37,880 nt of DNA from Verrucomicrobiota bacterium (GTDB lineage: Bacteria > Verrucomicrobiota > Kiritimatiellia > RFP12 > UBA1067), in NCBI GenBank assembly GCA_022704125.1, contig JAKJHA010000002.1, forward strand, positions 1 to 37,880, in the 5' to 3' direction. A program made the position numbers and the translations under genes. The notes below the pieces were generated by a model, which saw only the letters and a list, made by a program, of their open reading frames with translations, did not search any database and had not been told where the DNA came from. This document shows positions 4,181-27,366 of the stretch, one piece after another. Each line of letters starts with the position of its first letter. Position 1 is the first letter of the stretch.

Positions 4181-4231
4181 GTGCGGCGCGGTGCGCCGGG
4201 AGGGGCAAGCGTCCGCTTGCCCGGCGGCGTA

Positions 4232-4282
4232 AACGCCGCCCACAGGACCAACGCCGCCCACAGGACCAACGCCGCCCACAGG
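4232..4282 (+). repeat. 18-bp tandem repeat AACGCCGCCCACAGGACC (2.8 copies)
   Basis: Copies at 4232-4249, 4250-4267 and 4268-4282 (partial), preceded by hairpin GGGCAAGC-GTCC-GCTTGCCC at about 4203-4222. Lies in the intergenic space between the protease and the oxidoreductase. Confidence 0.85.
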
Positions 4283-4321
4283 GCTGTAGGAGAAACGGAA
4301 AGAAGGAAAGAAAGAGGGATT

Positions 4322-5659: not shown

Positions 5660-5685
5660 CCTTCGAATGTGAGTCAAGGAGACGT

Positions 5686-7629: not shown

Positions 7630-10851
<3,222 letters not shown>

Positions 10852-10854
10852 AAT

Positions 10855-11020
10855 TTAGGAGTTAGGAGTTAGGAGTTAGGAGTTTTGCATGGCTCGGCTT
10901 TGGGGACTGCCGGTACTGCCGATCCTGCGGGTGGTGTGGCACGGGCATCCTGCCCGTGGGCATGGGCACCCGCCCATGCCGCAAACCCGGCAGAACTAAC
11001 TCCTAAATCCTAATTCCTAA
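10855..11020. repeat. MITE-like element: inverted TTAGGAG heptamer arrays flanking a dual-hairpin REP unit
   Basis: (TTAGGAG)x4 at 10855-10882 begins 3 nt after the mfd stop. The inverted array CTCCTAA-ATCCTAA-TTCCTAA lies at 11000-11020. Between them are hairpins CACGGGCA-tcc-TGCCCGTG (10940-10958) and GCATGGGC-N4-GCCCATGC (about 10960-10979). Confidence 0.75.
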
Positions 11021-11058
11021 ATGTCAACTCGAGTTTTGGCTCCGCGCCATACGCGGAA

Positions 11059-11457
11059 TCAAAACTCGACGCGTGCGCGTGCGGCTTTTTTCTCGCTGTG
11101 CTTGCGCTTTTCGTCGAGCATGCGCGCTTTCTGGCGGCGGGAGCGGCGTCGTTTTTGGCGGCGGATTTTTTCAGCGGCCTGACGGCGCGCTGAAAGCTCG
11201 CTTTTCGCGCGCTCTAAAATCTTCTCGGCCAGTTCGCGGCGCGCGAGCCAGCGGTTCGCTTCGCGCGAACGGCTGCGGCCATACTTAATCGTCATGCCGC
11301 TGGGCACGTGATAGAGGCGGACGGTCGATGAGGTTTTGTTGGTCTTTTGCCCACCGGGGCCTGAACCCAGAATAAACGACTCCTGAAGGTCCTCCTCGAA
11401 GACCGAGGCCAGGGCCATGCGCGCTTTGATTTTGTCTATCGTTTCCGGGCTAAGCAA
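11059..11457 (-). CDS. GGQ-motif peptidyl-tRNA hydrolase / release-factor-like protein (ArfB/ICT1-like)
   Basis: 'GSGPGGQKTNKTSSTVRLYHVPSG' RF-1 domain motif followed by a long K/R-rich C-terminal tail, as in ArfB. Preferred start is TTG 11457, which has GGAG 5 nt upstream. ATG 11418 and the track start 11496 are alternatives, and the 11496 extension translates a REP element. Confidence 0.75.
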   Translation of the reverse strand: MLSPETIDKIKARMALASVFEEDLQESFILGSGPGGQKTNKTSSTVRLYHVPSGMTIKYGRSRSREANRWLARRELAEKILERAKSELSARRQAAEKIRRQKRRRSRRQKARMLDEKRKHSEKKAARARVEF

Positions 11458-11487
11458 AAAGACTCCTGACGCCGCAACCGGGTGGGG

Positions 11488-11528
11488 CACGGGCATCTTG
11501 CCCGTGTTTCATGGGCGGGACGCCCATG
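11488..11528 (+). repeat. Dual-hairpin REP-like unit (second copy)
   Basis: CACGGGCA-tct-TGCCCGTG (11488-11506) plus CATGGGCG-gga-CGCCCATG (11510-11528). Same architecture and orientation as 10940-10979. Confidence 0.8.
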
Positions 11529-11600: not shown

Positions 11601-11828
11601 TCAAGTCGCTGCTTGGGGCGGCGTAGATTCGCCTGCCGCTTCACGGGCGGCCTTGTTGCGCCTTCGCGCTTCGTGCGACCGGCTGGCCAGAGCAGCATAA
11701 TCAATGTCGCGGCGTTTTGCCGCGCCTGTTCCGGCTCTGCCCATGAGGCTCGCGGCCAGTTCCGGCGATGCCGGAATTGCCGCGCCGCATTCTGGACAGA
11801 TGATGTGGGTTCCTTTTTTCATGATCAC
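11601..11828 (-). CDS. Small hypothetical protein with a CPEC half zinc-ribbon and a basic C-terminus
   Basis: GTG 11828 (GTGA overlap with the upstream stop) or ATG 11822. 'HIICPECGAAI' followed by a basic tail 'SHEARRRNKAAREAA'. Confidence 0.6.
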   Translation of the reverse strand: MIMKKGTHIICPECGAAIPASPELAASLMGRAGTGAAKRRDIDYAALASRSHEARRRNKAAREAAGESTPPQAAT

Positions 11829-12097
11829 TCGCCCAGCTTCGCCAGTCCGTCTCGGTAGCCCTGCCCGCGCTCGTGGCGCGGGCGATCATCTGGGTCGGCA
11901 TCCGCCGCAGCCAGCCACGTCTCGTGCTCTTCCTGCGTTCCGAATTGATCACCGTAAAACGCACGTCGTAATCCGCGCTCGTAGCCAAGCCAGTATTCCG
12001 GTCTATCTCCGGCCGCCAGCATTGATTTTGAGCGGTGTAATTCAGATGTGAAGATGGTTTTTTTATCCATTTTGCTCTCCTCGTTTTTCGTGTTCAT
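11825..12097 (-). CDS. Small hypothetical protein ('YWLGYERGLRR' motif)
   Basis: ATG 12097 overlaps the upstream stop (ATGA). ATG 12070 with GAGGAG 6 nt upstream is an equally good start. Low GC, about 42% in one hand-counted 60-nt line. Confidence 0.6.
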   Translation of the reverse strand: MNTKNEESKMDKKTIFTSELHRSKSMLAAGDRPEYWLGYERGLRRAFYGDQFGTQEEHETWLAAADADPDDRPRHERGQGYRDGLAKLGE

Positions 12098-12390
12098 TCC
12101 GCCTGTTGCTGTTTTTCCTCGTCCGTCGGTTCCTCCAGAATTTTGAGCAGCGTTTTTTCGCTGTACGCGAACTGATCGCTATTGAAAATTCTAGCGTGTT
12201 TTTCACCGCGCACTCGGATGCGCGCACCGTGTTTGCGTTGCGCCCGCAGCGCCGCCAGCGGGCTCCTGTGCCACGAAATCGTGTATAGGATGTCCGGTCG
12301 TCCGCTGATCATGTTCATGGTCGCGTTCGCAAGCCGTTCGTCCAACTGACACACCTCGTAGCGCGGTTGATTTCTCATTGTCGGTGTCAT
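12094..12390 (-). CDS. Hypothetical protein (98 aa)
   Basis: ATG 12390 with AAAGGA upstream. First gene of a three-gene overlapping set. No motif recognised. Confidence 0.6.
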   Translation of the reverse strand: MTPTMRNQPRYEVCQLDERLANATMNMISGRPDILYTISWHRSPLAALRAQRKHGARIRVRGEKHARIFNSDQFAYSEKTLLKILEEPTDEEKQQQAE

Positions 12391-12419
12391 CGTATCATCC
12401 TTTCGTTTATGGTTGCGAT

Positions 12420-12453
12420 AAAAAAGTGGTGCCCGCCGGAATCACCGGCGGGC
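12420..12453 (-). terminator. Rho-independent terminator after the 82-aa gene
   Basis: Stem GCCCGCCGG-aatca-CCGGCGGGC (12431-12453) lies 7 nt after the TAA stop (12461-12463). On the minus strand it is followed by CAC-TTTTTT-AT. Confidence 0.75.
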
Positions 12454-12460
12454 GATGGTT

Positions 12461-12709
12461 TTAGAAATCCTTCGGGTAAGCGTGAGCATGGTAGTAGAAA
12501 TCGTATTCGACTCCTGCTTCCGCCCATGCTTTCAGATCATCGGTAGCCGAAGTGAATAGATAGAATGTCGCTCCGTTTTCGTCGCGGATGGTGGTCCACG
12601 TTTCATCCGGTTTCCATTCTATAGCCACGTCGTTGTTGTCGCAGAGGGCTGCGATCATGCCCTTTTTCATTAGTTCCTGCGCAGTATCGCGGTCAATTAG
12701 AGTTGCCAT
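12461..12709 (-). CDS. Small acidic hypothetical protein (82 aa)
   Basis: ATG 12709 preceded by AAGGAG. Net acidic and D/E/W/Y-rich, with no TM segment. Followed by a terminator. Confidence 0.65.
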   Translation of the reverse strand: MATLIDRDTAQELMKKGMIAALCDNNDVAIEWKPDETWTTIRDENGATFYLFTSATDDLKAWAEAGVEYDFYYHAHAYPKDF

Positions 12710-12726
12710 GTTTTCTCCTTGTGGTT

Positions 12727-12749
12727 GCCCGCCGGTGCCACCGGCGGGC
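12727..12749 (-). repeat. Intercistronic hairpin with the same 9-bp stem as the 12431-12453 terminator
   Basis: GCCCGCCGG-tgcca-CCGGCGGGC. It has no T-run and sits between the stop at 12764 and the RBS/start at 12709. Confidence 0.7.
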
Positions 12750-12763
12750 GGTGTTGAAGACGT

Positions 12764-13369
12764 TTAGATGCCCATCTCGCGCAGTGTCTGTGAGGGCTCT
12801 AATTTAAGCCCACTTTCTTTTTCCATCTCGGCGATCAGCGACCGAACAATTTCGGGGTTGCCGTCGGCCGGGATTTCCCGCTCGATATCATAGGCGCTGT
12901 CAGATCCTTCGCGCATAGCGGCAGGACAAAGCAGATCGCTGGTTTTGGAAGTGATGCACAGAAAAGCTTTGCCGTCTCGAATATCGGCAAAAACGGCGGC
13001 CGTTTTCCGGGACGCCGGCTCGTCCGGTTTCTTTTGATCCTTGCCCAGCTCGGCATCAATCTCGGCGAGCCGCGCGAGCAGTTTGTCGCGCTCGGCGCGC
13101 AATGCTTCACGGCTATCGGAAGCAGGAGCGTCTTCTGGCAAATTGAAGATGCGGATGTTTTTGTTTTCGGCTATCGCTGCCGCGAGCCGGTATCTGTCCG
13201 GCTTGGTCGCGCGCGGGTCACCCTCTTGTTCCCACTTTTCCACTAGCCAGCAAGCAAAACATTTGCGCCCGGCTTCGCTGGCTATCCGTGAGTCTCGCTG
13301 TCTTTGTGGGCCGTAAAGCTGTATCTTGCCGGTGTGGCCGCAAGCCCATTCTACTGTTTCCCATGCCAT
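12764..13369 (-). CDS. Hypothetical protein with N-terminal C-x-H...C-x-x-C zinc-ribbon, coiled-coil centre and acidic C-terminal domain
   Basis: ATG 13369 preceded by AAAGGAGAAAAG. 'WACGHTGKIQLYGPQRQRDSRIASEAGRKCFACW'. 'REALRAERDKLLARLAEIDAELGK' is coiled-coil-like. The track start 13405 is unlikely. Confidence 0.7.
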   Translation of the reverse strand: MAWETVEWACGHTGKIQLYGPQRQRDSRIASEAGRKCFACWLVEKWEQEGDPRATKPDRYRLAAAIAENKNIRIFNLPEDAPASDSREALRAERDKLLARLAEIDAELGKDQKKPDEPASRKTAAVFADIRDGKAFLCITSKTSDLLCPAAMREGSDSAYDIEREIPADGNPEIVRSLIAEMEKESGLKLEPSQTLREMGI

Positions 13370-13425
13370 GGTCTTTTCTCCTTTGGTGTTTTCGGGCGAG
13401 CCCATCCCGCCCTTTTGTTGCCCAC

Positions 13426-13454
13426 ATAATAGCGCAACGTTGCGCTATTGTCAA
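13426..13454 (-). promoter_or_regulatory. Near-consensus sigma70 promoter with an embedded 22-bp perfect palindrome (operator candidate)
   Basis: The minus strand reads TTGACA (13449-13454), a 17-nt spacer, then TATTAT (13426-13431). The palindrome AATAGCGCAACGTTGCGCTATT (13428-13449) spans the spacer and touches both hexamers. An A/T-rich UP-like tract lies upstream (13460-13500). Confidence 0.7.
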
Positions 13455-13501
13455 TGGGGCGTAACAACTTTTTTCAAATATTTTTTGGCACAAAAAAACC
13501 G

Positions 13502-13534
13502 CCGTCGGCGGGGGCCAACGGCGGCTCGGCGTGA
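13502..13534 (-). terminator. Rho-independent terminator after the lipoprotein gene
   Basis: Stem CCGCCGT/ACGGCGG (13509-13515 / 13528-13534), followed on the minus strand by a T7 run (complement of 13502-13508). It lies 19 nt after the stop at 13553. Confidence 0.65.
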
Positions 13535-13552
13535 CTGGTTTAAACGGCTGTG

Positions 13553-14011
13553 TCACTGGTTCGGAACGGTGCAACTTCCGTCTGCGCAGTTGCCGTTCGC
13601 ACAGGCGCTGATTGCGTTTGCCTCTTCGGACGTCAGCTTTGTCCCGGCCGGGGCGGTGCCGCTGATGATCGACATCAGCTTTTGCAGCGCATCGCCAACG
13701 ATGCCGGATTGCGGTGATGCGCCGCCGGTACCCGCGCTGCCCCCGCCGACGCCGACGGCGACTTCTGGCCGTGTGTCGGTGGTTTGTGTAGCGGTGGAAT
13801 CCTGCTTATCCCCGCCGCCGTCCGCCGACGCGTATAGTCCGTCGCCGACGGTGATGTGGATGGTATTGGATGTCCCGAAGATTTCCGCGCGGATGTCGCG
13901 GTACGATGCACGGTTGCTGCGGCTGGCCGGGTCTGCCGTCTGGCAGCCGGACAGCATGAGTAGCGCGGCAAGCGCGGTCGCGCCCGCCGTCGTGATAGTT
14001 CTGTTTTTCAT
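13553..14011 (-). CDS. Lipoprotein (o-spanin-like or exclusion lipoprotein)
   Basis: ATG 14011 gives MKNRTITTAGATALAALLMLSG|C with a lipobox LSGC. G/T/S-rich mature part. Cys-rich C-terminus 'ACANGNCADGSC'. The K-rich track extension to 14104 is less likely. Confidence 0.7.
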   Translation of the reverse strand: MKNRTITTAGATALAALLMLSGCQTADPASRSNRASYRDIRAEIFGTSNTIHITVGDGLYASADGGGDKQDSTATQTTDTRPEVAVGVGGGSAGTGGASPQSGIVGDALQKLMSIISGTAPAGTKLTSEEANAISACANGNCADGSCTVPNQ

Positions 14012-14111
14012 GGCTTTTCCCTTTTTTAGTTTTGCGTCAAGGCGAGCCTTTTTGACAGCCGCCTTTTTACGCTTGTCCGAGAGTTTTTCAGGTTTTGATT
14101 TCATGGGAATC

Positions 14112-14459
14112 TCACCCTCCGATAATGCGTTTTAGTTGCGTGACCAGTTCATTCCGCACCGCAGCGATCTCTGCCTCGGTCGGAGGACGGCCCTCGAACA
14201 ACTCGAAGTTGTCGGCGAACTCGGCAAGCGATTTATCCATGATCCCGCGTATCGCGGCCGACCCCTCACCGCCGTCTTTCATCACCTCGCGCGCGGCCGC
14301 AATGAAGGTCGCAACGACCGGCTGCGCGTAACACCACACGTATTCGAGCAGCGATCCGCGCGTCTTGCTCTTCAGCCATTGCGCCAGAGCGTTGAGCGCT
14401 AGCACGATCAGCGTGATGAGCGCAGTCTGGACCTGCACGTTGTTCAGTAGTTCGTTCAT
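14112..14459 (-). CDS. Single-pass membrane protein (i-spanin / holin-like)
   Basis: ATG 14459. N-terminal TM 'VQTALITLIVLALNALAQWL' followed by a helical soluble part. Sits between a 2-TM protein and a lipoprotein. Confidence 0.6.
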   Translation of the reverse strand: MNELLNNVQVQTALITLIVLALNALAQWLKSKTRGSLLEYVWCYAQPVVATFIAAAREVMKDGGEGSAAIRGIMDKSLAEFADNFELFEGRPPTEAEIAAVRNELVTQLKRIIGG

Positions 14460-14506
14460 GTGTTTCTCCTGTTGGCCACGGCATCGCGCCGTGGATGAAA
14501 TCGTCG

Positions 14507-14842
14507 TTACTCGTTGCTGCGCCGACAGTGATTTATCGCAGATTGCACCTGCTCCATCGCGCGGCAAGTTTCCGCGATCACTCTGGTGTTCGCTTCGATG
14601 ATCGTGTCAAATTTACTGAACTGTAGCTTGATCAAATAGGCTGTCGTTCCTAAGCTCAGAATGAACCCGAATGCGAGTATGCCGGTGGCGCTCAGTTTTT
14701 CGATACGCTCGGCCGCTGTGAACGGATCGGGCATCTCCGTGGCCACCACCAGCGAGACGGCGAAAAGCGACGCGATCAGCATGACGGCAAAAATGCGTAT
14801 CGCTCCGTACCGCACTTCTTCTTTGAACGATTTTACAACCAT
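14507..14842 (-). CDS. Two-TM membrane protein (holin candidate)
   Basis: ATG 14842 preceded by GAGGAG. TM1 'IRIFAVMLIASLFAVSLVVA', TM2 'GILAFGFILSLGTTAYLI', and a charged C-terminus. Confidence 0.6.
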   Translation of the reverse strand: MVVKSFKEEVRYGAIRIFAVMLIASLFAVSLVVATEMPDPFTAAERIEKLSATGILAFGFILSLGTTAYLIKLQFSKFDTIIEANTRVIAETCRAMEQVQSAINHCRRSNE

Positions 14843-14854
14843 GAAAAAACTCCT

Positions 14855-15295
14855 CTATAATGGCCGAAAAGTTACATCGCGCGGTGGACTCCGAAAACCG
14901 CGCGATGCCGGCTGACACCGTGTCCGCCGGAAAATCACTAAAAGCACTAGGGTCGACGCAAGAAACACTGCGTAGCCACACTGCCCGTGCACTCGCTCAA
15001 ATATGGCCGGATGGCGCAAGCAGAGCGCGACAAGCGTGAAGCATCTAAGCCAGCTCATCGCCGTGCCGACGGCCAGCGCAGCGGGAAACGGCCACGCTTG
15101 CCGCAGGCCGGCCGACGCGACCAGGCCGACCAGACCGACAAGCATGACAGCCCGCGTTGCAAGACACCCCGGCTGTACCTGCACGGCTGTGTCGCCGCAG
15201 ACGATCACGTTCCCGAACGCCTGCATGTCCCAGCCGACACCGGACCAGATCGCCGCGACGGTCCAAGCGTAGATCCTGCAAACAAGCTCCATCAT
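14855..15295 (-). CDS. Polytopic (about 4 TM) membrane protein with exosortase/archaeosortase-like Cys-Arg-His pattern (tentative)
   Basis: ATG 15295 overlaps the upstream stop (ATGA). 'GNVIVCGDTAVQVQPGC44LATRAVMLVGL', 'AMSWLR84CFTLVAL' and 'FERVH103GQCGYAVFL' occur in the order and spacing I recall for the exosortase core. The protein is roughly half the size of known exosortases. Coding status is solid; the function is a hypothesis. Confidence 0.4.
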   Translation of the reverse strand: MMELVCRIYAWTVAAIWSGVGWDMQAFGNVIVCGDTAVQVQPGCLATRAVMLVGLVGLVASAGLRQAWPFPAALAVGTAMSWLRCFTLVALCLRHPAIFERVHGQCGYAVFLASTLVLLVIFRRTRCQPASRGFRSPPRDVTFRPL

Positions 15296-16392
15296 TTGAT
15301 CGTCCTCATGTTGTCGAGCGGAGGCATGGCCAGTTTCAGCCTCGGCACATCCGGTTCCTCTGCTACCACATCAGGAATGAGATCACGTGCTGTCAACGCG
15401 CCGCCGTCCTTGATCATCAACCCGCCATTTGCGGGTAGCCGCGCGTCGCCGGTGATCAGGCGCTCGGCCGGCTGGTCGGCTTCGATGGTCGCGTACCGCG
15501 TCGCGCCTGCTCCGGCCGATTTCGCCATCGGTTCAGGAGCACCGCCCTCGCCCTGCGTTGCGGCCTTCGGTTCCATCTTGAACACGCCGCCTTTGATCTG
15601 CACCGGTCGGCCGTCGATGATGTAGTCTCCGGTGATGCCCTCATACATCTTGCCGCTCACTGGATCGACCAGCACGACGCCCTCGATCTGGCAACCGTTC
15701 GGACCTCCAAGCAGAATCTCATCCGCAGCCGCTATGTACCCGTCCACGCCGACGGGTGGACGGAACGTGTAAGTGTACGCATTGACGGATGTGTTGCTGG
15801 GGTAGCTCGTACTTTCGTGCTCTACCCACCATGTCGCGCCGTCGCGCCGCCGACGCAGGTACATCATGACGGCGGGTTCGTCTGTGATCTCTCGCGATGC
15901 CTGCACCTCAACCGTCCACGTTCCATCGCCGTTGTTGGTCAGATTTTTCGGCCGCAGTTTGATGTTCTGGTTGCCCGGGTTGTTGAGCAGGTTTGGCCGC
16001 AACTGCATCACCGGCGGTTTCCGCGCCGGCCGTTTCACCGTGTTCGTGATCGCGATGATTTCGGTGTCGATCACCTCGACGCGCTCACGGACGAACGTGA
16101 TGCCGGACAGCATCTCCAGCCACGAAGCCTTCACCGCCTGCGTCCATTTGAGCCACTCTCTTCTTACCCTCATGTAGCGATACACTTGCGGCGGCACAGG
16201 CTTGCCTCGCTCGCCGTCGGCCAGCGCGAACGCCGCCGCGCACAAACCACCGATCAACACGGCGCACATGGTCGGGAGCGGTTGCCAGCGGCGACGCCGT
16301 ATCAGCCATCGCGCCGCGAAAAGCAGCGGGACGGCCGCGAGCACAAACAGCCACGCGGCGAGTTCAAGCTGGCACTGTTCGCAGATCGTCAT
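15292..16392 (-). CDS. Membrane-anchored protein (two N-terminal TM segments, large beta-rich ectodomain)
   Basis: ATG 16392 lies 2 nt after the upstream stop. TM segments 'LAAWLFVLAAVPLLFAA' and the Gly/Ala-rich 'MCAVLIGGLCAAAFALA' (SAR-like). No catalytic motif recognised. The track start 16602 is an Arg-rich extension. Confidence 0.65.
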   Translation of the reverse strand: MTICEQCQLELAAWLFVLAAVPLLFAARWLIRRRRWQPLPTMCAVLIGGLCAAAFALADGERGKPVPPQVYRYMRVRREWLKWTQAVKASWLEMLSGITFVRERVEVIDTEIIAITNTVKRPARKPPVMQLRPNLLNNPGNQNIKLRPKNLTNNGDGTWTVEVQASREITDEPAVMMYLRRRRDGATWWVEHESTSYPSNTSVNAYTYTFRPPVGVDGYIAAADEILLGGPNGCQIEGVVLVDPVSGKMYEGITGDYIIDGRPVQIKGGVFKMEPKAATQGEGGAPEPMAKSAGAGATRYATIEADQPAERLITGDARLPANGGLMIKDGGALTARDLIPDVVAEEPDVPRLKLAMPPLDNMRTIK

Positions 16393-16394
16393 CG

Positions 16395-17213
16395 TTACGG
16401 TTCCATCATCATGATCACGAGCGGGTTGTTGGTATCCACCGCGAACCCGCCGCGGATGTTCAACACGATGTTTGTTCCGCCCACCACATCGAGAGCTACA
16501 ATGTCGTAGTTCGCGCCGCCCGCCACCCCTCCGATGATCGGCAGCGCGTTGCCTCGGATCACGAATCCGGTTGCGAGCAGTTTGAAGGAACACTGCCCCC
16601 ACGACAAAGGGACGGTGGCCGTCACGCGGTAGCAGGCGCCGCCCGTTTTCCCGTAGTCTGCCGGTGTCCCGATTTGATCCGGGAACGTGTTTGTCACCGT
16701 GATGCTCTCGAATCCGTTTTCGAGCAGGTTGGTCGTGTGCGTGGCGACAAAATCAGGCATCTGCGGCGGCACCTCGGCGAACCATTGGACGATGTGGCAC
16801 TGCCTGCCGTCCGCCGTGTCCTCGACGCTGAACCCGACCGTCTCGCTGGCGATGTCGTCCGCCGCGCCGACGCCCCGCAGTGCCGACATCGTGAACGCGA
16901 TCTCCCATACGCCGTTCGACGTGAGATCCGCCACGTCGTGCCACGCCGCGCTAGCCCGGTTGCTCGACGTCACCGCGATCGCGAGCGCCTGAGTGGCCAC
17001 CGCGTCGGCCTGGATGATCGCCGCCTCTGCCTCGCGGAATTCCTGCATCGTGGGCACCACGCCGAGAGGATGTATTGTGCCAGATACAAGATTGCTGCCG
17101 CCGTCGCCGAACACCGCGTCGTGAACGGTCAAGTCAAACCACCCGCCGCTGATCTGCCCCTGTGCCGCGCCCGCCGCGATCAACGCCGCTATCATGAAAA
17201 TGATTCGCCTCAT
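16395..17213 (-). CDS. Exported protein, unknown function (Sec-type signal peptide)
   Basis: ATG 17213 overlaps the upstream stop (ATGA). Signal peptide MRRIIFMIAALIAAGAAQG|Q. Beta-rich with a Gly-rich C-terminus. Confidence 0.65.
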   Translation of the reverse strand: MRRIIFMIAALIAAGAAQGQISGGWFDLTVHDAVFGDGGSNLVSGTIHPLGVVPTMQEFREAEAAIIQADAVATQALAIAVTSSNRASAAWHDVADLTSNGVWEIAFTMSALRGVGAADDIASETVGFSVEDTADGRQCHIVQWFAEVPPQMPDFVATHTTNLLENGFESITVTNTFPDQIGTPADYGKTGGACYRVTATVPLSWGQCSFKLLATGFVIRGNALPIIGGVAGGANYDIVALDVVGGTNIVLNIRGGFAVDTNNPLVIMMMEP

Positions 17214-18004
17214 TGCACCGGCTCCCATGCTGTCGTGAGTAGGTTCGTGTCCCAGTACTGCCGGTACCACACACCATCACGCAAGATCATGGGTACGGTA
17301 ATGTCGGCGATGGCTGATGTGAGATCGGGGACGGTGACGATCATGGAAAGATCATATACCGCAACGAGATTCGTAATCATCACATCGCGCGGCCCGATCG
17401 TCAGCGAGCCGCTCCCCGATTGCGATCCGTTTGAATTGTAATATGCGTGGGGTACCGTCCACGGGTAGTCGGGCGGCAGGCTCGGGTTCATGTGGGTGGG
17501 GATGGAGAGCGGCACGTAGGAAATAGCGAAAAACGGATCATCCTGATAGCAGATAAAATTCGCGTCCTGGCTGTTGAACGTTGACAGCGGCGCGCGCGCC
17601 GCGCCGCTGAACTCAACGACCGTCCCGTCCGGCCGCATATAGCCGAACTGATCCGACACCGAATAGTAGACTAGATTCGTCGGATATACGCTCCACACGC
17701 GACCTGTGCCGCCGTCGATAGTGAAAAACCATGCACTGTCTTGCGACGCAAGGGCGGTGAACTCCAGCGCAGCGAGGGCCTCGGCGAGCTGCACCTGCGT
17801 GAGCGCACCGATCTGGCCGGGCGTGATACCGTGGGGGTTGTCCCTTCGCATGGTGTGCGCATGCGCTTCGTCCAGGCGATTGCTTTGCGGACCGATCACC
17901 ACCTCCGCGCGATCGGCCGTCACGTCGGCCAGCAGCGTGATTTTCGTATCTCCGTGCGCGGCGGCAGCGGCAATGATGCAGAGTGCAGTCAGTATCGTTC
18001 TCAT
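17210..18004 (-). CDS. Tail-fibre-like protein with Sec-type signal peptide
   Basis: ATG 18004 overlaps the upstream stop (ATGA). Signal peptide MRTILTALCIIAAAAAHG|D. 'NPHGITPGQIGAL' is a motif I recognise from phage tail-fibre/spike proteins. The C-terminal half has lower GC. Confidence 0.6.
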   Translation of the reverse strand: MRTILTALCIIAAAAAHGDTKITLLADVTADRAEVVIGPQSNRLDEAHAHTMRRDNPHGITPGQIGALTQVQLAEALAALEFTALASQDSAWFFTIDGGTGRVWSVYPTNLVYYSVSDQFGYMRPDGTVVEFSGAARAPLSTFNSQDANFICYQDDPFFAISYVPLSIPTHMNPSLPPDYPWTVPHAYYNSNGSQSGSGSLTIGPRDVMITNLVAVYDLSMIVTVPDLTSAIADITVPMILRDGVWYRQYWDTNLLTTAWEPVQ

Positions 18005-19203
18005 GGTGTTTCCTCCCGTATCCAGAGTGAGTGTTTACCGTCCGCTTCAGGACGGGCGTAGATGGTGTTTTTTAACTCGCTTTGCAATGCCACCCTATCT
18101 ACACGCTGTGTTTTTATGGTCATGACTTCCCGGGAGAATAAGCGTGACCAGCCGAACCAATCGGTTGCATAGATTCCATCAGTTGCCGATGCTGTTCCCC
18201 AAAGCGCACCGATGTCTTCGCCCAACCATATCTCGGTGTGAATCGGTGCGTATGGAGGCTCTGATGTGCCGGAAATGTATCCGTGTGGAGTCTCGATGTA
18301 AAATTCAGGAGGCAGGGGGAACGACAGCCCATCCAGCACCGATGTGGTCGCCGGTGAGATGGAATCGGTGTAGAACCAGTTTGTCACGGCAGTTGGGCCG
18401 ACCAGCCACACGCTACCGGTTGCATCAATCCAGCGGTCTCCATCAAGCGTGGCGATCCTGTCCGTTGCCACTACAACGTCACCGGTTTTTCCGTTCACAC
18501 TTGTTACGGGGAAAACAACCGCGTCGATTGCAGAAGAGATTTCTTGATCCGTCTGCGATCTGGTGTAGTAGTTCACAATGCCAGATGCCAAAAAATAACC
18601 TGCTTCAGCATGGTTGCCCCAAGAGTGCGCCAAATCCCAACGGTTGGTGTTTTGCTCGATGTTGCCTATTCTGGATTGCAGTGGACCGACAACCGCCGCG
18701 ACCTGCTGCGTTGTTGCTGCCGCAGATGCGATTGCGAGCGCCTGCGTTGCGACGGCGTAGGCGCGATCCCCGACGATCCATTCAGCGGGGAGCGACGTGC
18801 GCGCCGGGTTCAGCCGCACCACGGCCGCGCCGCGCCCCCACTCTTCGATCCGCCCGTCGCGCGCCCCGAGGATGATCGCGTCGTATCTGCCGTTGGTCGG
18901 CGCCGCCGTCGCCGCGAGGTCCCATGTCATGCGGCCGTGAACGGCCGTCACGTTGGTCAGCGTCATGCCGCCGCCGTCGCCGCCACGGTCGCCGATCCAC
19001 AGGAGTCCTGTCCAGCCGGTCGGGTCAAACTCCGCTCCGGCCGACAGCAGGTTCGCGCGTACGGTTACGTCCGTCGCCTCGGTGACCGTCAGCGCGAACG
19101 GACGCGCCGGGCGTTCGAGGTCGAGCGTGATCTGCTCGACGCGCCCGGCGTTGATCGATAGGGGAATGATGGCACACGTCAGAAAGAAGGCAATCGCTCT
19201 CAT
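18001..19203 (-). CDS. Tail-fibre / baseplate-upper-protein-like protein with Sec-type signal peptide
   Basis: ATG 19203 (the track start 19260 is a TTG). Signal peptide MRAIAFFLTCAIIPLSINA|G. BppU-N-like Ig segment ('DVTVRANLL..GRYDAIILG..AAVVRLNP'). Fibre motif 'SVNGKTGDVVV'. The distal two-thirds has low GC. Confidence 0.6.
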   Translation of the reverse strand: MRAIAFFLTCAIIPLSINAGRVEQITLDLERPARPFALTVTEATDVTVRANLLSAGAEFDPTGWTGLLWIGDRGGDGGGMTLTNVTAVHGRMTWDLAATAAPTNGRYDAIILGARDGRIEEWGRGAAVVRLNPARTSLPAEWIVGDRAYAVATQALAIASAAATTQQVAAVVGPLQSRIGNIEQNTNRWDLAHSWGNHAEAGYFLASGIVNYYTRSQTDQEISSAIDAVVFPVTSVNGKTGDVVVATDRIATLDGDRWIDATGSVWLVGPTAVTNWFYTDSISPATTSVLDGLSFPLPPEFYIETPHGYISGTSEPPYAPIHTEIWLGEDIGALWGTASATDGIYATDWFGWSRLFSREVMTIKTQRVDRVALQSELKNTIYARPEADGKHSLWIREETP

Positions 19204-19219
19204 GGCAATGGCCGGAGCG

Positions 19220-19444
19220 TCAAATATCGGTTTGCAGCTCCAGCATCCCTGTCGGTTCAACAGGATCAGGCGGTTCGTATATTTCTTCCGACCATGATGC
19301 GTTATCGTACTCCTCCTCTAAATTATCAAACCCAAGCGTAGAGATGTCGTTGCCGACTACTACCGAGACGGTGGCATTTGGATCAAGCGCCCCGAGAGAT
19401 ACATCGCCATCTGCGCCATATGCCCAAACCTCATTTTCAGCCAT
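19220..19444 (-). CDS. Small highly acidic protein (fibre assembly chaperone candidate)
   Basis: ATG 19444 preceded by AGGTGA. 74 aa, D/E-rich. Positioned between two fibre-type genes. Confidence 0.55.
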   Translation of the reverse strand: MAENEVWAYGADGDVSLGALDPNATVSVVVGNDISTLGFDNLEEEYDNASWSEEIYEPPDPVEPTGMLELQTDI

Positions 19445-19455
19445 TTTACATCACC

Positions 19456-20277
19456 TCACGAAATATATGCGTACACCTTGGCGCCGAGTGCGGAGGCCAT
19501 ACTAAGTTGGAAATTGGGAAGATTGAACGGCGTTGCTTCCGTCCATCCCATATGCACCCAGCACGTCCCGTCGCTGCCGACGGCATTCGTGTTGAAATCC
19601 CAGTTGGTCACGCCGACATTCGTAAGCCGAGGATAGCAATTGGGCTCATATTTATTTGTTACAACAACCAGTTGTCCGGTGCTGGAATCTACATACATCA
19701 ACCCGACCGTCGATCCAGCAGATACGGACGCGTTGGTCAATGTGTTTGCCATGACCTGCACACACGAACCTGAACTCATGAACGCATGGATGTTTGAGGT
19801 AAGGTTTGGAGAAAACAACATCCGTAACGCCTCTCCCCATTGCAATGTCCCATAATTGCCGTTTGCAGAGTTGTGTGTACAGACACCTGCACCGTAAAGC
19901 TGCACTCTTATTTTTGTGACGACATTTCCTGATACTCCCAATGGTACTTTGTACCGGAATGCTGACAGAGTTTCCATTCGTGCCCACAACTGGTGGCTGA
20001 CCTGACTTTCAGGCGACCTCTGGGCTCCTTGATAGATGATAGGGAAACCGTAATTTGCAGATTGCCATGTCGCATTCCGAACGGCGTCGACACAGGCACT
20101 ATGTATTCCCGAGTTAACTCCCTGATAATATCCGCTCTCTGCGTATACGCCAACACCTCGAATGTCAATAAGTTGCATACGAACCCATCCGGGCTTGAGA
20201 ATCAATAGTCGGCCGGAGTCTCCAGAACGAATTAAATGGCCATCAGGGGCACGAAGCAGATGTCCGTTAGTTGCCAT
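19456..20277 (-). CDS. Receptor-binding / distal tail fibre protein candidate (low-GC cassette)
   Basis: ATG 20277 lies 2 nt after the upstream stop. 273 aa, beta-rich, N/S/G/T/V-rich. About 45-50% GC in hand-counted lines versus 65-70% in the head genes. Confidence 0.55.
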   Translation of the reverse strand: MATNGHLLRAPDGHLIRSGDSGRLLILKPGWVRMQLIDIRGVGVYAESGYYQGVNSGIHSACVDAVRNATWQSANYGFPIIYQGAQRSPESQVSHQLWARMETLSAFRYKVPLGVSGNVVTKIRVQLYGAGVCTHNSANGNYGTLQWGEALRMLFSPNLTSNIHAFMSSGSCVQVMANTLTNASVSAGSTVGLMYVDSSTGQLVVVTNKYEPNCYPRLTNVGVTNWDFNTNAVGSDGTCWVHMGWTEATPFNLPNFQLSMASALGAKVYAYIS

Positions 20278-20279
20278 AG

Positions 20280-21041
20280 TTATGTCGCTATTATGAGTGA
20301 ACTGGGGACTTCAACGGTAAACCTGCCTTCAGAGCTTACGGCTGCCAAAGCACCCATCGCATTAAACTGAAATTGCCGGTAGTACGCATCGAGCCGTGGG
20401 ACATCCGCCGTGTGGTCGTAGCGTATGCGAGTTAAAACAGTGATGTTTAACGCTTCCTGGCCGTCTGATTGCCAACTTAATTGGCTGGTGTTAACTCCGC
20501 CCTCATTTTGCGCCAACAAATCCTTCGTTGAAGTGCCGTAAAAAAATGCCGGGCCGATCGCGTGGCGGTGATCGGCACGGGAATAATAACTTGATGTGCC
20601 GGCTTCTCCGGACGCCCCCCCCGTCAATGACAAAGGTGTGACGTTCGATCCGTTAAATTGATGCGAATGGTCGCCGCGGGCGTATTGAGAGCTTGATCCG
20701 GGCGAACCACCATCCCTTGGCGGCGTGTATGGGTAATAGTTCCCGGGGTGCTGGTGATCGCCACGCGCTGCCAGCGGCGAAGAACCGGCGGATCCGTTTC
20801 CGCCGTCCGCAGGCGGCGCGTTGTTACTCAGCTCGATGTCCGGAGCGGGAGGAATCTGGATGCGCCACGGCGTGTCACGGCCGGGCTGCGCGTTTTTCAG
20901 GATTTGCGGATGCGTCAATCCCTCGACTTCTTCGATCACGATATGATTCAGGATGCCCGCAACGGTCTGCATGATCTCCGTTGTGATCATGTCGCGCAGC
21001 GGCGTTCCCGGTTTGAATTTTTCAGGCAGGGGAAAAGACAT
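20280..21041 (-). CDS. Tail fibre protein with three (A/S)R(G/A)DHxH repeats
   Basis: ATG 21041 preceded by GGAG. 'GSAGSSPLAARGDHQH', 'GSPGSSSQYARGDHSH' and 'GEAGTSSYYSRADHRH' spaced about 30 aa apart. The track start 21137 is an Arg-rich extension overlapping the upstream gene. Confidence 0.65.
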   Translation of the reverse strand: MSFPLPEKFKPGTPLRDMITTEIMQTVAGILNHIVIEEVEGLTHPQILKNAQPGRDTPWRIQIPPAPDIELSNNAPPADGGNGSAGSSPLAARGDHQHPGNYYPYTPPRDGGSPGSSSQYARGDHSHQFNGSNVTPLSLTGGASGEAGTSSYYSRADHRHAIGPAFFYGTSTKDLLAQNEGGVNTSQLSWQSDGQEALNITVLTRIRYDHTADVPRLDAYYRQFQFNAMGALAAVSSEGRFTVEVPSSLIIAT

Positions 21042-21054
21042 CGGTGCTCTACTC

Positions 21055-21387
21055 CTATAGCGGCGGGTTCCACGCCGACCACGCCGACCACGCGGTGGTT
21101 TCCTGTGTCGTCTTGGTGATCTTGTACGCGCCGGCATCGTTCTGCCTCGATATCTCGACTGTGACCACGGTGCGCTTGCCGTTCCCGTCGATTGAATCGC
21201 TGCTCATTGTGCTTGCAGATGTGTTTGCCGCAGCCTCGGTCATGCTGCGGTACTCGACAACGGTCGTGGTGATCTGCCGCGAACTGTAGCGCCTGTTTGC
21301 GCCGGCGTTCGCATACTGATACACCGTTTCCACGATGTTGCGCTTGCTGATCGAAATCGGTGCCGGTAGTGTCGTTAGCCATCCCAT
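21055..21387 (-). CDS. Hypothetical tail protein (110 aa)
   Basis: ATG 21387 preceded by GAGGTGA, 11 nt after the tape-measure stop. Its composition is protein-like, unlike the overlapping Arg/His-rich frame 20987-21397. Confidence 0.6.
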   Translation of the reverse strand: MGWLTTLPAPISISKRNIVETVYQYANAGANRRYSSRQITTTVVEYRSMTEAAANTSASTMSSDSIDGNGKRTVVTVEISRQNDAGAYKITKTTQETTAWSAWSAWNPPL

Positions 21388-21398
21388 CGTTGCTCACC

Positions 21399-25414: not shown

Positions 25415-25584
25415 ACACTGCTACGGGAAAGTCTCTGACTCCCCGTAAGGGGCGATCCGGTAGCCGTGCCAGGCTGCGACCGGATGTTGCTGGGGGGGGA
25501 CGGCACAGTCCCCCGTGTCCATGGAAGGGGGCGCGAGTCTAACCTTCAGGCGGGACCACGAAAGGGGGCCCGCCATTTTTTTTT
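25415..25584 (+). ncRNA. Candidate plus-strand structured small RNA (5-prime end undefined)
   Basis: Successive hairpins: TACGGG/CCCGTA, ATCCGG(AGCC..GGCT)CCGGAT, GGGGGAC-ggcaca-GTCCCCC, GAAGG/CCTTC. It ends in a plus-strand intrinsic terminator. No convincing ORF on either strand and no promoter confidently identified. Confidence 0.3.
25549..25584 (+). terminator. Plus-strand rho-independent terminator abutting the MuF gene stop codon
   Basis: GGCGGGACC-acgaaag-GGGGCCCGCC followed by A + T9 (25576-25584). The minus-strand reading has no T-run after the hairpin, so it is oriented for plus-strand transcription in an otherwise all-minus region. Confidence 0.65.
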
Positions 25585-27364: not shown

Positions 27365-27366
27365 GA

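What the first reader, a model, noticed from the sequence alone, without database searches (positions are those of the whole stretch)
14855..15295. Phage-encoded mini membrane protein with an exosortase/archaeosortase-like Cys-Arg-His core
The 146-aa product has about four TM helices and three motifs in the family order. The first is 'GNVIV-(8)-VQVQPGC44LATRAVMLVGL', a Cys at the start of a TM preceded by a beta-like hydrophobic stretch. The second is 'SWLR84CFTLVAL', an Arg inside a TM 40 residues later, close to the 41-residue Cys-to-Arg spacing I recall for archaeosortase ArtA. The third is 'FERVH103GQCGYAVFL', an H-x-x-x-G. Known exosortases are chromosomal, roughly twice as long, and process PEP-CTERM-type C-terminal signals. 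None of the neighbouring proteins ends in such a signal. If the resemblance is real, this would be a minimal, virus-borne member with an unknown substrate, translationally coupled to four exported proteins. I know of no described phage sortase-like system of this kind.
Basis: inference. Interest (0 to 1): 0.8.

Follow-up and report, generated by a model that had tools for sequence, protein, structure and literature searches.

The report
Prophage-borne minimal exosortase with dedicated partner
A prophage in a Kiritimatiellae bacterium encodes a 146-residue, four-helix membrane protein that is a real but very reduced relative of the exosortase protein-sorting enzymes, and it is always paired with a phage membrane protein whose tail ends in a conserved short peptide that may be its target.

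Summary
ORF 14855-15295 (-) encodes a 146-aa, four-helix membrane protein. It scores above the curated cut-offs of Pfam Exosortase_EpsH (28.9 bits, cut-off 25.7) and NCBIfam TIGR04178 (26.7, cut-off 23). C44 and H103 are invariant and R84 is conserved (Lys in one lineage) across 13 homologues down to about 35% identity. These residues align with the Cys/Arg/His of a full-length exosortase, and a shuffle control excludes composition bias.

The gene lies in the late operon of a prophage (terminase, portal, capsid) inserted beside host arfB-like and mfd genes. Relatives sit in Mu-like phages and in two IMG/VR viral contigs.

Small size is not new. NCBIfam already holds short subfamilies (XrtF/H/K/X/Y, ArtE), and JGI already labels close homologues 'exosortase/archaeosortase family protein'.

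Three things are new:
- the viral setting (nothing in 50,697 GenBank phages, PHROGs, BFVD or the searchable literature);
- the absence of any tripartite PEP-CTERM-type signal in the loci examined;
- an obligate, translationally coupled partner of about 312-366 aa (N-terminal TM hairpin, periplasmic domain, variable linker) ending in a near-invariant PPLKLAMPPLD peptide.

I propose this peptide is the enzyme's recognition signal. That is inference: activity and substrate are untested.

The parts
14855..15295 (-). Mini-exosortase gene, 146 aa. Predicted N-in/C-in topology with four TM helices. Signature codons: C44 at 15164-15166, R84 at 15044-15046, H103 at 14987-14989. The TAG stop is at 14855-14857.
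   Evidence: ORF and translation. PF09721 and TIGR04178 above cut-offs. AF2 model with pLDDT 80. Invariant G43-C44-L45, R48-A49, W82, F86, V89, F99 and H103 in 13 sequences. dN/dS 0.12-0.47, and positive-inside charge distribution.
15292..16392 (-). Obligate partner protein, 366 aa. It has an N-terminal TM1-RRRR-TM2 hairpin, a long helix, a beta-rich periplasmic domain, and a variable Pro/Ala/Glu-rich linker that is predicted to be disordered. Its stop overlaps the exosortase start (ATGA).
   Evidence: Family alignment A3, 11 sequences. AF2 is confident only for residues 1-100. A mini-exosortase ORF directly follows it in every locus where the downstream sequence is present. No Pfam, NCBIfam, PHROG, PADLOC or PDB-sequence match.
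15313..15339 (-). Codons for the conserved C-terminal peptide LKLAMPPLD (partner residues 352-360). This is the candidate recognition or cleavage signal. The six residues after it (NMRTIK) encode the Shine-Dalgarno sequence for the exosortase start.
   Evidence: P357 and D360 are invariant; K353, L354, M356 and P358 are at least 90% conserved. The motif occurs once per locus, always 4-6 residues from the partner's C-terminus. Synonymous codon variation shows protein-level constraint. It is tandemly duplicated in P0020/L016.
16395..17213 (-). Conserved exported protein, 272 aa. It has a Sec-type signal peptide and a C-terminus reading ...NIRGGFAVDTNNPLVIMMMEP.
   Evidence: Alignment A4 has 73% mean column identity, and conservation begins right after the predicted signal-peptide cleavage site. 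It lies directly upstream of the partner in the window and in L001, L009, L010, L014, L016, L017, L021 and L023-L026.
17210..18004 (-). Fibre-like exported protein, 264 aa. It has a Sec-type signal peptide and the cassette's conserved C-terminal module ...RDGVWYRQYWDTNLLTTAWEPVQ.
   Evidence: The same C-terminal module ends the variable fibre-like protein in L001, L009, L010, L014, L016 and L017. Weak PHROG tail-fibre hits, E 4.7e-4. This region is replaced relative to L001.
18001..19260 (-). Fibre-like exported protein carrying the cassette's conserved N-terminal module. The likely start is the Met at about 19203 (MRAIAFFLTCAIIPLSINA...). Its C-terminal part differs from that of close relatives.
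   Evidence: The N-terminus matches the L001 322-aa protein at 88% nucleotide identity over 18701-19214. The remainder is not shared, indicating module shuffling.
14507..14842 (-). 111-aa two-TM protein (holin-like build), 12 nt downstream of the exosortase gene and in the same frame. Natural variants fuse it to the mini-exosortase.
   Evidence: TM prediction. The 266-aa fusion P0028 occurs in six samples where TAG has become CAG. No holin family hit in Pfam or PHROGs.
14112..14459 (-). 115-aa protein with one N-terminal TM helix. It is conserved with the cassette core in the closest relatives.
   Evidence: 94.5% nucleotide identity block 14116-15402.
13553..14104 (-). Predicted lipoprotein (lipobox LSGC; likely start at MKNRTITT). 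It is homologous to L013:2655-3068 and belongs to the variable terminal cargo of the prophage.

Best explanation
The gene encodes a minimal, four-helix member of the exosortase/archaeosortase superfamily that keeps only the catalytic C-terminal half of the canonical enzyme.

Predicted topology is N-in/C-in. The acidic, K/R-free loop carrying a three-stranded beta-meander and Cys44 faces the periplasm. Arg84 and His103 lie in the outer-leaflet halves of helices 3 and 4.

The gene is transcribed with the phage late genes. It is translated in step with the gene immediately upstream. That gene encodes an inner-membrane protein anchored by an N-terminal two-helix hairpin. Its periplasmic domain is followed by a long flexible linker ending in the near-invariant peptide PPLKLAMPPLD.

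I propose the following mechanism:
1. This peptide is the enzyme's cognate signal. It would be a sorting signal without a TM helix, with membrane proximity supplied by the partner's own N-terminal anchor rather than by a C-terminal helix.
2. Cys44 attacks within or just after the motif.
3. The few residues after the motif are removed.
4. The new C-terminus is either released or transferred to an acceptor. Possible acceptors are an envelope lipid or glycan, or one of the two co-encoded Sec-exported proteins (the 272-aa protein and the variable fibre-like protein).
5. The result would be a processed envelope-associated complex late in infection.

What is shown:
- superfamily homology;
- conservation of the Cys/Arg/His signature;
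- purifying selection;
- phage context on at least two phage backbones;
- strict co-occurrence and overlap with the partner;
- protein-level conservation of the partner's C-terminal peptide;
- absence of canonical tripartite signals in the loci.

What is inferred:
- catalytic activity;
- topology;
- the peptide being the substrate;
- the fate of the product;
- the biological role, for which candidates are fibre or adhesin maturation, masking of envelope receptors, and a lysis-associated step.
For: - Homology.
- Signature conservation across 13 sequences from about 10 lineages.
- Model and topology.
- Purifying selection.
- Prophage and viral context: terminase, portal, capsid and neck genes; Mu-like backbones L010, L011 and L016, and L017, which shares the cassette and downstream genes with L016; IMG/VR viral contigs L018 and L019; a holin plus serine recombinase next to the cassette in L021.
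- Partner pairing: partner and mini-exosortase are adjacent and overlapping wherever both positions can be seen.
- Partner anatomy: TM hairpin, conserved domain, linker of variable length (including a 107-nt indel between 94%-identical relatives), and near-invariant terminal motif.
- Motif: unique to the partner's C-terminus, conserved at the amino-acid rather than the nucleotide level, and duplicated in tandem in one lineage.
- Precedent: a short exosortase working with a dedicated adjacent membrane partner and no PEP-CTERM target is known from XrtF/Fjoh_1449 (PMC10936215).
- Family chemistry: exosortases and archaeosortases are regarded as Cys proteases and possible transpeptidases with a Cys/Arg/His signature (Haft, bioRxiv 10.1101/2023.06.07.544157; ArtA mutagenesis summarised in PMC9263693).
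Against: - No biochemical evidence exists for any step.
- Every known exosortase, archaeosortase or sortase signal has a TM helix and a basic cluster after the motif. The proposed signal has neither.
- The conserved tail could instead be a docking peptide for another protein, for example the 272-aa protein, a lipoprotein, or the enzyme itself as a pseudo-substrate.
- L015 has Lys in place of Arg84.
- In L013 the partner survives only as a 3' remnant, so the pairing can decay.
- The partner's structure model is poor (pLDDT 54), and no complex model could be run.
- The host genome outside the window was not examined, so host PEP-CTERM proteins remain possible substrates.
- All members come from a narrow set of metagenomic lineages, so co-occurrence is partly phylogenetic inertia.
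Confidence: 0.5

Rival explanations
1. The phage enzyme acts on host proteins. It would process or mis-process the host's own PEP-CTERM-type surface proteins, or compete with the host exosortase, to remodel the cell surface. The purpose would be superinfection exclusion, receptor masking or lysogenic conversion. The upstream partner would be an accessory subunit rather than the substrate.
For: - The enzyme is a true exosortase-family member, and no canonical signal is encoded by the phage itself.
- In L006 a transposase-associated deletion removed the head and tail genes but left the cassette intact. This is compatible with a benefit to the host, although it is only one case.
- Own knowledge, not tested here: relatives of the host in the PVC superphylum often carry many PEP-CTERM proteins.
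Against: - The strict 1:1, translationally coupled pairing with a phage partner bearing a conserved terminal peptide points to a self-contained system.
- The gene sits in late structural operons, also in Mu-like phages, and not in a typical moron position.
- The family is highly diverged from every named host-type subfamily.
- The host repertoire of exosortases and PEP-CTERM proteins was not examined.
Confidence: 0.15
2. It is a lysis or membrane-perturbing protein: a holin, antiholin or holin accessory. Its exosortase ancestry would be vestigial, and the conserved Cys/Arg/His would serve structure or regulation rather than catalysis.
For: - It lies immediately upstream of small TM proteins with a holin-like build (window 14507-14842 and 14112-14459). 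In L021 it lies two genes upstream of a Pfam Phage_holin_10 gene.
- Natural variants fuse it in frame to the 111-aa two-TM protein.
- No endolysin was recognised in the region.
Against: - The exact catalytic signature is conserved through about 65% sequence divergence, which is not expected of a holin.
- No holin family matches in Pfam or PHROGs, and no structural likeness to BFVD holins (best E 0.22, TM-score 0.3).
- Separate holin candidates are present.
- In the Mu-like phages it is followed by an SGNH hydrolase and morphogenesis genes, not by a lysis cassette.
Confidence: 0.1
3. It is a non-catalytic membrane scaffold or assembly chaperone for the exported fibre-like and 272-aa proteins. 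The partner's tail and the conserved C-termini of the two secreted proteins (...DTNLLTTAWEP.. and ...DTNNPxxxMxxE..) would dock non-covalently.
For: - Three different cassette proteins have conserved C-terminal ends.
- The cassette occupies the place where tail-fibre and fibre-assembly genes usually sit, between the tail genes and the lysis or integrase genes.
- The fibre-like gene is mosaic, like a receptor-binding protein.
Against: - The invariant Cys and His and the near-invariant Arg are most simply explained by catalysis.
- The last residues of the 272-aa protein are not strictly conserved; L016 ends in LYGY.
- Signal peptides on proteins destined for cytoplasmically assembled virions would be unusual.
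Confidence: 0.15
4. The profile matches are chance similarity between hydrophobic proteins, and the protein is unrelated to exosortases.
For: The scores are only modestly above the cut-offs. Three of nine members fall below E 0.01 against PF09721. No structure is available to confirm the fold.
Against: - Two independent curated models are passed.
- The alignment to the catalytic half is collinear, with Cys, Arg and His in register.
- The shuffle control gives 34.2 bits against at most 10.6.
- JGI made the same assignment independently.
Confidence: 0.04

Closest known systems
Exosortase/archaeosortase superfamily core (Pfam PF09721 Exosortase_EpsH; NCBIfam TIGR04178 exo_archaeo), e.g. XrtA, cyanoexosortase CrtA, ArtA
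   Same: Scores above the curated cut-offs. The alignment to the C-terminal catalytic half is collinear. The conserved Cys, Arg and His have similar spacing: 40 and 19 residues here, 45 and 18 in the CrtA-like P0013, and 41 from Cys173 to Arg214 in ArtA. It is a polytopic membrane protein whose signature residues are predicted at the outer face (PMC9263693).
   Different: - It has four helices and 146 aa instead of about eight helices and 260-300 aa or more; the N-terminal half is absent.
- It is encoded in phage late operons rather than EPS or chromosomal loci.
- No PEP-CTERM or PGF-CTERM-type tripartite signal occurs in the loci.
- It reaches no subfamily-specific cut-off.
XrtF (Fjoh_1448) with its 'exosortase F system-associated protein' (Fjoh_1449) in Bacteroidota
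   Same: Both are short exosortase-family proteins (the XrtF model has 174 positions). Each is encoded next to a dedicated membrane partner, and neither has an identified PEP-CTERM-type target. In Flavobacterium johnsoniae, deleting either gene gives the same phenotype (PMC10936215).
   Different: No sequence membership was found: XrtF is not among the window protein's NCBIfam hits at E up to 10. The partners are unrelated: the window partner has no NCBIfam hit at E up to 1. XrtF is chromosomal in Bacteroidota, whereas this system is phage-borne in Kiritimatiellae-type hosts. The partner here has a large periplasmic domain and a conserved C-terminal peptide.
Other short subfamilies: XrtH (IPTLxxWG-CTERM-specific, from my own knowledge of NCBIfam), XrtK, XrtX, XrtY, ArtE
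   Same: Similar size (models of 153-168 positions) and the same catalytic core. The relative P0014 gives a weak hit to XrtX, 23.5 bits.
   Different: All scores are far below the subfamily cut-offs (for example 23.5 against 170 for XrtX). From my own knowledge, those subfamilies with known targets recognise tripartite C-terminal signals. None is reported from phages.
Sortase A / LPXTG system of Gram-positive bacteria
   Same: The proposed logic is the same: a Cys/Arg/His enzyme recognises a short Pro-containing C-terminal motif on an exported protein and may transfer it to an acceptor (Haft, bioRxiv 10.1101/2023.06.07.544157).
   Different: The fold is unrelated. The sortase signal includes a TM helix and a basic tail. 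This is analogy only.

Membership tests
Exosortase/archaeosortase superfamily (PF09721 / TIGR04178) | Score above the curated profile cut-off | tested here: met
   PF09721 gives 28.9 bits against a gathering score of 25.7, E 9.3e-7. TIGR04178 gives 26.7 bits against 23. Six of nine family members hit PF09721. The relative P0014 also passes TIGR04178, at 23.7 bits.
Exosortase/archaeosortase superfamily (PF09721 / TIGR04178) | Conserved Cys, Arg and His signature residues in register with canonical members | tested here: met
   C44 and H103 are invariant; R84 is conserved in 12 of 13 sequences, with Lys in L015. They align to C154/R199/H217 of P0013, a CrtA/8TM_EpsH-like protein.
Exosortase/archaeosortase superfamily (PF09721 / TIGR04178) | Integral membrane protein with the signature residues near the extracytoplasmic face | tested here: met
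   This is prediction only. The AF2 model has four helices. The positive-inside rule places loop 20-46 (0 K/R, contains C44) outside and the Arg-rich C-tail inside. No experimental topology exists.
Exosortase/archaeosortase superfamily (PF09721 / TIGR04178) | Full eight-TM architecture (TIGR02602 8TM_EpsH) | tested here: not met
   Only profile positions 130-252 of 254 are covered, and there are four helices. This feature is not universal in the superfamily, because short subfamilies exist.
Exosortase/archaeosortase superfamily (PF09721 / TIGR04178) | Co-occurring target proteins with a tripartite C-terminal signal (motif, TM helix, basic cluster) | tested here: not met
   None was found among ORFs of 80 aa or more in the window and eight related loci. 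The host genome beyond the window could not be examined. A TM-less conserved C-terminal peptide on the partner is the only candidate signal.
Exosortase/archaeosortase superfamily (PF09721 / TIGR04178) | Cysteine endopeptidase or transpeptidase activity on the signal | not testable with these tools
   This needs mutagenesis and mass spectrometry.
Exosortase/archaeosortase superfamily (PF09721 / TIGR04178) | Fold shared with a solved or modelled exosortase | not testable with these tools
   No exosortase is in the PDB by sequence or by Foldseek. No AlphaFold DB library was available.
Named short subfamilies (XrtF, XrtH, XrtK, XrtX, XrtY, ArtE) | Score above the subfamily-specific NCBIfam cut-off | tested here: not met
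   Among exosortase models, the window protein hits only TIGR04178 and, weakly, CrtC (13.9 bits against 225). The relative P0014 scores 23.5 against 170 for XrtX.
Phage holins | Match to a holin family or holin-like fold; small TM protein in a lysis cassette | tested here: not met
   There is no holin hit in Pfam or PHROGs. The best BFVD holin match has E 0.22 and TM-score 0.30. Its position next to holin-like genes is the only point of agreement. Lethality on induction was not testable.
Known anti-phage defence systems (PADLOC) | Match of any cassette protein to a defence-system model | tested here: not met
   No family matched any of the ten cassette and flanking proteins at E up to 0.01.

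The most novel reading that the evidence does not exclude
This would be the first virus-encoded protein-sorting transpeptidase: a 146-residue minimal exosortase that recognises a C-terminal signal with no TM helix (PPLKLAMPPLD) on its co-translated partner. It would covalently attach that protein to a host envelope component or to the co-encoded exported fibre-like proteins. The result would be a phage-specified surface or envelope structure made late in infection. It would also be the smallest self-contained enzyme-substrate pair of the exosortase family.
Probability: 0.3. Interest if true: 0.8.

Novelty: new variant of a known kind. Interest (0 to 1): 0.6.

Why it matters
Exosortases and archaeosortases are widespread, but their chemistry is still unsettled. 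It is not known whether they are one-step transpeptidases or what the acceptor is in bacteria. No structure was found in the PDB searches run here. The canonical enzymes have eight helices and dozens of substrates.

The system described here is much simpler. It is a 146-residue core enzyme with one obvious candidate substrate encoded immediately upstream, in a compact phage cassette. That would make a convenient minimal model for mutagenesis, mass spectrometry and structure determination.

On the phage side, the cassette combines Sec-exported fibre-like proteins with a sorting-type enzyme inside late structural operons, on at least two unrelated phage backbones. I found no description of such an arrangement. 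It suggests that phages of PVC-group bacteria process exported proteins in the envelope, perhaps for fibre maturation, receptor masking or lysis. It also shows that a C-terminal recognition peptide might work without its own membrane helix.

Tried and rejected
- Fold comparison of the mini-exosortase model with PDB and BFVD gave nothing at E 0.001 or better. The PDB has no exosortase, so fold membership cannot be tested this way.
- The partner's AF2 model is poor (pLDDT 54). Its Foldseek hits are generic beta-sandwiches at E 0.086 or worse and were disregarded.
- Profile searches of the partner and of the 272-aa protein against PDB sequences found nothing. Pfam, NCBIfam, PHROGs and PADLOC found nothing for them either.
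- The idea that the partner's TM hairpin is the detached N-terminal half of an exosortase gained no support: there is no PF09721 or NCBIfam exosortase hit.
- The idea that the C-terminal motif is a nucleotide-level (RBS or RNA) constraint was rejected. The motif codons vary synonymously, and only the 4-6 residues after the Asp encode the Shine-Dalgarno sequence.
- The apparent shared 'E-P' ending of the fibre-like and 272-aa proteins was considered as a signal. It is not strict (L016 ends in ...LYGY), and it partly overlaps the downstream RBS.
- tblastn against 50,697 GenBank phages found neither the enzyme nor the partner.
- The single-protein scan of IMG/VR found nothing, and scans with alignment A2 failed for lack of a conserved word. 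The GTDB genome scan with the partner profile found nothing.
- Literature searches for phage or prophage exosortases found only incidental co-mentions. No paper links Kiritimatiellae and PEP-CTERM.
- All-against-all BLASTP of the window's phage proteins found no paralogues of the fibre-like proteins, so there is no evidence for a second, non-exported copy.
Full report
**1. Observation**

The ORF at 14855-15295 (minus strand) is real: ATG start, TAG stop, 146 aa. The only slip is that 5 residues, not 8, separate GNVIV (28-32) from VQVQPGC (38-44).

An AlphaFold2 model built on nine homologues (mean pLDDT 80) shows helix 2-19, a three-stranded beta-meander at 24-39, then helices 47-64, 69-94 and 96-126.

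The loop at 20-46 carries the meander and C44. It has no Lys or Arg and two acidic residues. The C-terminal tail is Arg-rich. By the positive-inside rule the protein is therefore N-in/C-in, with C44, R84 and H103 towards the periplasmic face (inference).

Pairwise dN/dS across six comparisons is 0.12-0.47, so the frame is under purifying selection.

**2. Family membership**

- Pfam Exosortase_EpsH: E 9.3e-7, 28.9 bits against a gathering score of 25.7. Residues 8-123 align to profile positions 130-252 of 254, which is the catalytic half.
- NCBIfam signature model TIGR04178 (exosortase/archaeosortase family): 26.7 bits against a cut-off of 23.
- Six of nine diverged family members hit PF09721 independently, best E 2.2e-8.
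- An exhaustive HMMER search of 1.84 billion representatives found only 11 proteins. Ten are short (78-145 aa). The eleventh is a 279-aa protein, P0013, which scores as a cyanoexosortase/8TM_EpsH-type protein.
- hhalign of the mini-family against P0013 gives 86.9% probability and E 4e-6, with C44/R84/H103 aligned to its C154/R199/H217.
- A shuffle control excludes hydrophobic-composition artefacts: 34.2 bits for the real sequence, at most 10.6 for 2,000 shuffles, and -2.8 for the reversed sequence.
- In a 13-sequence alignment reaching about 35% identity, G43-C44-L45, R48-A49, W82, F86, V89, F99 and H103 are invariant. R84 is Lys only in L015.

The literature regards Cys/Arg/His as the suspected catalytic triad (Haft, bioRxiv 10.1101/2023.06.07.544157). 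For ArtA, mutagenesis showed that Cys173, Arg214 and Arg253 are critical (PMC9263693).

Fold comparison could not add anything. No exosortase is in the PDB, and nothing similar is in the BFVD viral structure library.

**3. Size and prior annotation**

NCBIfam already holds short subfamilies: ArtE (153 model positions), XrtH (158), XrtK (163), XrtX and XrtY (168 each) and XrtF (174). The window protein reaches none of their cut-offs.

JGI annotation already names the 91%-identical P0001 and the relative P0014 'exosortase/archaeosortase family protein'. NCBI calls P0001 hypothetical, from Kiritimatiellia/Kiritimatiellae MAGs.

**4. Context**

Window 1 to about 11713 is host chromosome. It carries tRNA-Asp, a tricorn-like S41 peptidase, a TAT-signal GFO/Idh/MocA oxidoreductase, a HEAT-repeat protein, Mfd, and an RF-1-domain (ArfB-like) protein.

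The rest is a minus-strand prophage: C5 and N6/N4 DNA methylases, large terminase, portal, scaffold, Gp13-like major capsid protein, a minor-capsid-2/PBECR2 fusion, and a Neck1-like protein.

The same prophage sits at the same site in eight assemblies of the host species.

The mini-exosortase gene lies at the distal end of the late operon. Four genes precede it, three joined to their neighbours by ATGA overlaps and one by a 2-nt spacer. Downstream are a 111-aa two-TM protein, a 115-aa one-TM protein and a lipoprotein.

**5. The conserved cassette**

The same cassette precedes the mini-exosortase in the loci that extend far enough upstream. These are the window and L001-L008, L009, L010-L012, L014, L015, L016, L017-L019, L020, L021-L022 and L023-L026. 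It has three parts:
- (a) A fibre-like protein with a Sec-type signal peptide, a variable middle (LRR_5 in L010), and a conserved C-terminal module ...RDGVxYRQxWDTNLLTTAWEP.
- (b) A highly conserved protein of about 270 aa with a signal peptide. Conservation starts exactly after the predicted cleavage site (73% mean column identity).
- (c) A protein of 312-366 aa whose stop overlaps the exosortase start.

In every locus where the sequence downstream of the partner is present, a mini-exosortase ORF follows directly. L013 keeps only a 3' remnant of the partner.

The backbones differ:
- the window phage has a T4-type terminase and a Gp13-like capsid protein;
- L010, L011 and L016 carry Mu-like marker genes such as portal, protease or Gp36, and L017 shares the cassette and downstream genes with L016;
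- L021 has the cassette followed by a Phage_holin_10 gene and a serine recombinase;
- L018 and L019 are IMG/VR viral contigs.

Compared with its 94%-identical relative L001, the window keeps the core (272-aa protein, partner, enzyme, 111-aa and 115-aa proteins). It has a different fibre-like middle region and different terminal cargo. This is the mosaic pattern typical of receptor-binding genes.

**6. The partner and its C-terminal peptide**

The partner has an N-terminal TM1-RRRR-TM2 hairpin and a long helix, both modelled confidently. A beta-rich domain follows, then about 100 residues predicted to be disordered.

Across 11 cluster representatives the linker varies in length and composition. 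There is even a 107-nt indel between close relatives. The protein nevertheless always ends in PPLKLAMPPLD plus 3-6 residues. P357 and D360 are invariant, and K353, L354, M356 and P358 are at least 90% conserved.

The pattern [AS][MIL]P[PL][LMFV]D occurs exactly once per locus in six-frame ORFs, always at this position.

Codons of the motif vary synonymously between lineages. The residues after the Asp simply encode the Shine-Dalgarno sequence (GGAGG, AGGAGG or GAGGA) of the overlapping enzyme start. The motif is therefore a protein-level feature and is effectively the functional C-terminus. One lineage has it in tandem (P0020/L016).

No ORF in the window or in eight related loci has a canonical motif + TM + basic signal.

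**7. Mechanism**

Best-supported reading (confidence about 0.5): this is a minimal, catalytically competent exosortase-type Cys peptidase or transpeptidase dedicated to the phage's own exported cassette proteins. The partner's tethered C-terminal peptide is the most likely recognition or cleavage site, and membrane proximity is supplied by the partner's N-terminal anchor instead of a C-terminal helix.

Homology, conserved signature, phage setting, obligate coupling and protein-level conservation of the peptide are shown. Activity, topology, substrate identity, acceptor and biological role are inferred.

XrtF with its adjacent 'system-associated' membrane protein is the closest precedent for a short exosortase with a dedicated partner and no PEP-CTERM target (PMC10936215).

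The rivals are action on host PEP-CTERM proteins (0.15), a non-catalytic scaffold or chaperone (0.15), a holin-like lysis role (0.10), and chance similarity (0.04). The evidence for and against each is listed in the rival-explanations section of this report.

**8. A natural fusion**

In six independent samples (ten contigs on record), the enzyme's TAG stop is CAG. This fuses it in frame, through a four-codon spacer, to the 111-aa two-TM protein (P0028, 266 aa).

The fusion is topologically consistent, because the enzyme's C-tail and the 111-aa protein's N-terminus are both predicted to be cytoplasmic. It hints at a functional link. It is, however, a single-lineage polymorphism, and the downstream ORF keeps its own RBS and ATG.

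**9. Novelty and verdict**

No counterpart was found in any of these sources:
- 50,697 GenBank phage genomes;
- PHROGs, where a canonical exosortase also has no family;
- BFVD;
- PADLOC;
- the searchable literature.

Family membership itself is already recognised by automated annotation, and short exosortases are known. I therefore rate this 'new variant of a known kind': a phage-borne mini-exosortase subfamily with an obligate partner bearing a non-canonical, TM-less C-terminal peptide. Interest is 0.6.

Noticed in passing
window 14855-14857 and 14507-14842; L027-L032 (e.g. L027:3001-3801): The mini-exosortase's TAG stop is in frame with the downstream 111-aa two-TM ORF, with a 12-nt spacer AGGAGTTTTTTC. 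In six samples (ten contigs on record) the TAG is CAG, giving a 266-aa fusion protein (P0028). The downstream ORF keeps its own SD and ATG.
   Followed up: partly
L006:5520-6629 and flanks: In one assembly a DDE transposase sits where the prophage's head and tail genes should be, with host genes upstream. The cassette (321-, 272- and 332-aa proteins, the 150-aa exosortase, and the 111-, 115-, 60- and 247-aa proteins) is retained intact next to the RF-1-domain gene.
   Followed up: partly
window 11714-14115, 17279-18700, 19215-21587 versus L001: These three blocks are replaced relative to the otherwise 87-98% identical prophage and host region in L001. They are the terminal cargo (a 183-aa lipoprotein and 213-, 82-, 98- and 90-aa ORFs, instead of 60- and 247-aa genes), the middle of the fibre-like genes, and two genes upstream of the cassette. 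The host/prophage junction is at about 11713.
   Followed up: partly
window 18001-19260 and 17210-18004: A single 322-aa fibre-like gene in L001 corresponds to two genes in the window. A 419-aa ORF keeps the N-terminal module with a new C-terminus. A 264-aa gene has its own signal peptide and carries the conserved C-terminal module. This indicates module shuffling.
   Followed up: partly
L016:6213-6800, L017:4997-5584: In the Mu-like relatives a 195-aa SGNH/GDSL hydrolase without a signal peptide overlaps the stop of the mini-exosortase gene. It is followed by a 283-aa protein with several TM helices, a lipobox-like LSGC or ATGC, and a C-terminal CxxC (thioredoxin-like) region.
   Followed up: no
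window 25583-27406 (-): A 607-aa protein combines a phage minor capsid protein 2 (SPP1 gp7-like) domain with a C-terminal PBECR2 nuclease-like domain of the Barnase/EndoU/colicin-E5/RelE type.
   Followed up: no
window 33719-36075 (-): Two adjacent phage DNA methyltransferase genes lie in the prophage upstream (in the direction of transcription) of the terminase gene: a C5-cytosine methylase (326 aa) and an N6/N4 methylase (459 aa).
   Followed up: no
window 435-511 (-), 908-11496: The host segment carries tRNA-Asp(GTC), a 1090-aa tricorn-like PD40/PDZ/S41 peptidase, a TAT-signal GFO/Idh/MocA oxidoreductase, a HEAT-repeat protein, Mfd, and a 145-aa RF-1-domain (ArfB-like) protein. The prophage is inserted directly beside the last of these. 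No tRNA lies at the junction.
   Followed up: no
window 13553-14104 (-); L013:2655-3068: This lipoprotein has a Gly/Ser/Thr-rich middle and a Cys-rich C-terminus (CANGNCADGSC). It is conserved between the window and the distant locus L013, where it lies two genes after the mini-exosortase. L001 has an unrelated lipoprotein with a CxxC thioredoxin-like domain instead.
   Followed up: no
cluster of P0001: The 90%-identity protein cluster of the mini-exosortase also contains the unrelated neighbouring 111-aa protein, which JGI names 'uncharacterized protein YaaQ'. The 266-aa fusion protein evidently bridges the two. This is a clustering artefact worth knowing when reading member counts.
   Followed up: yes
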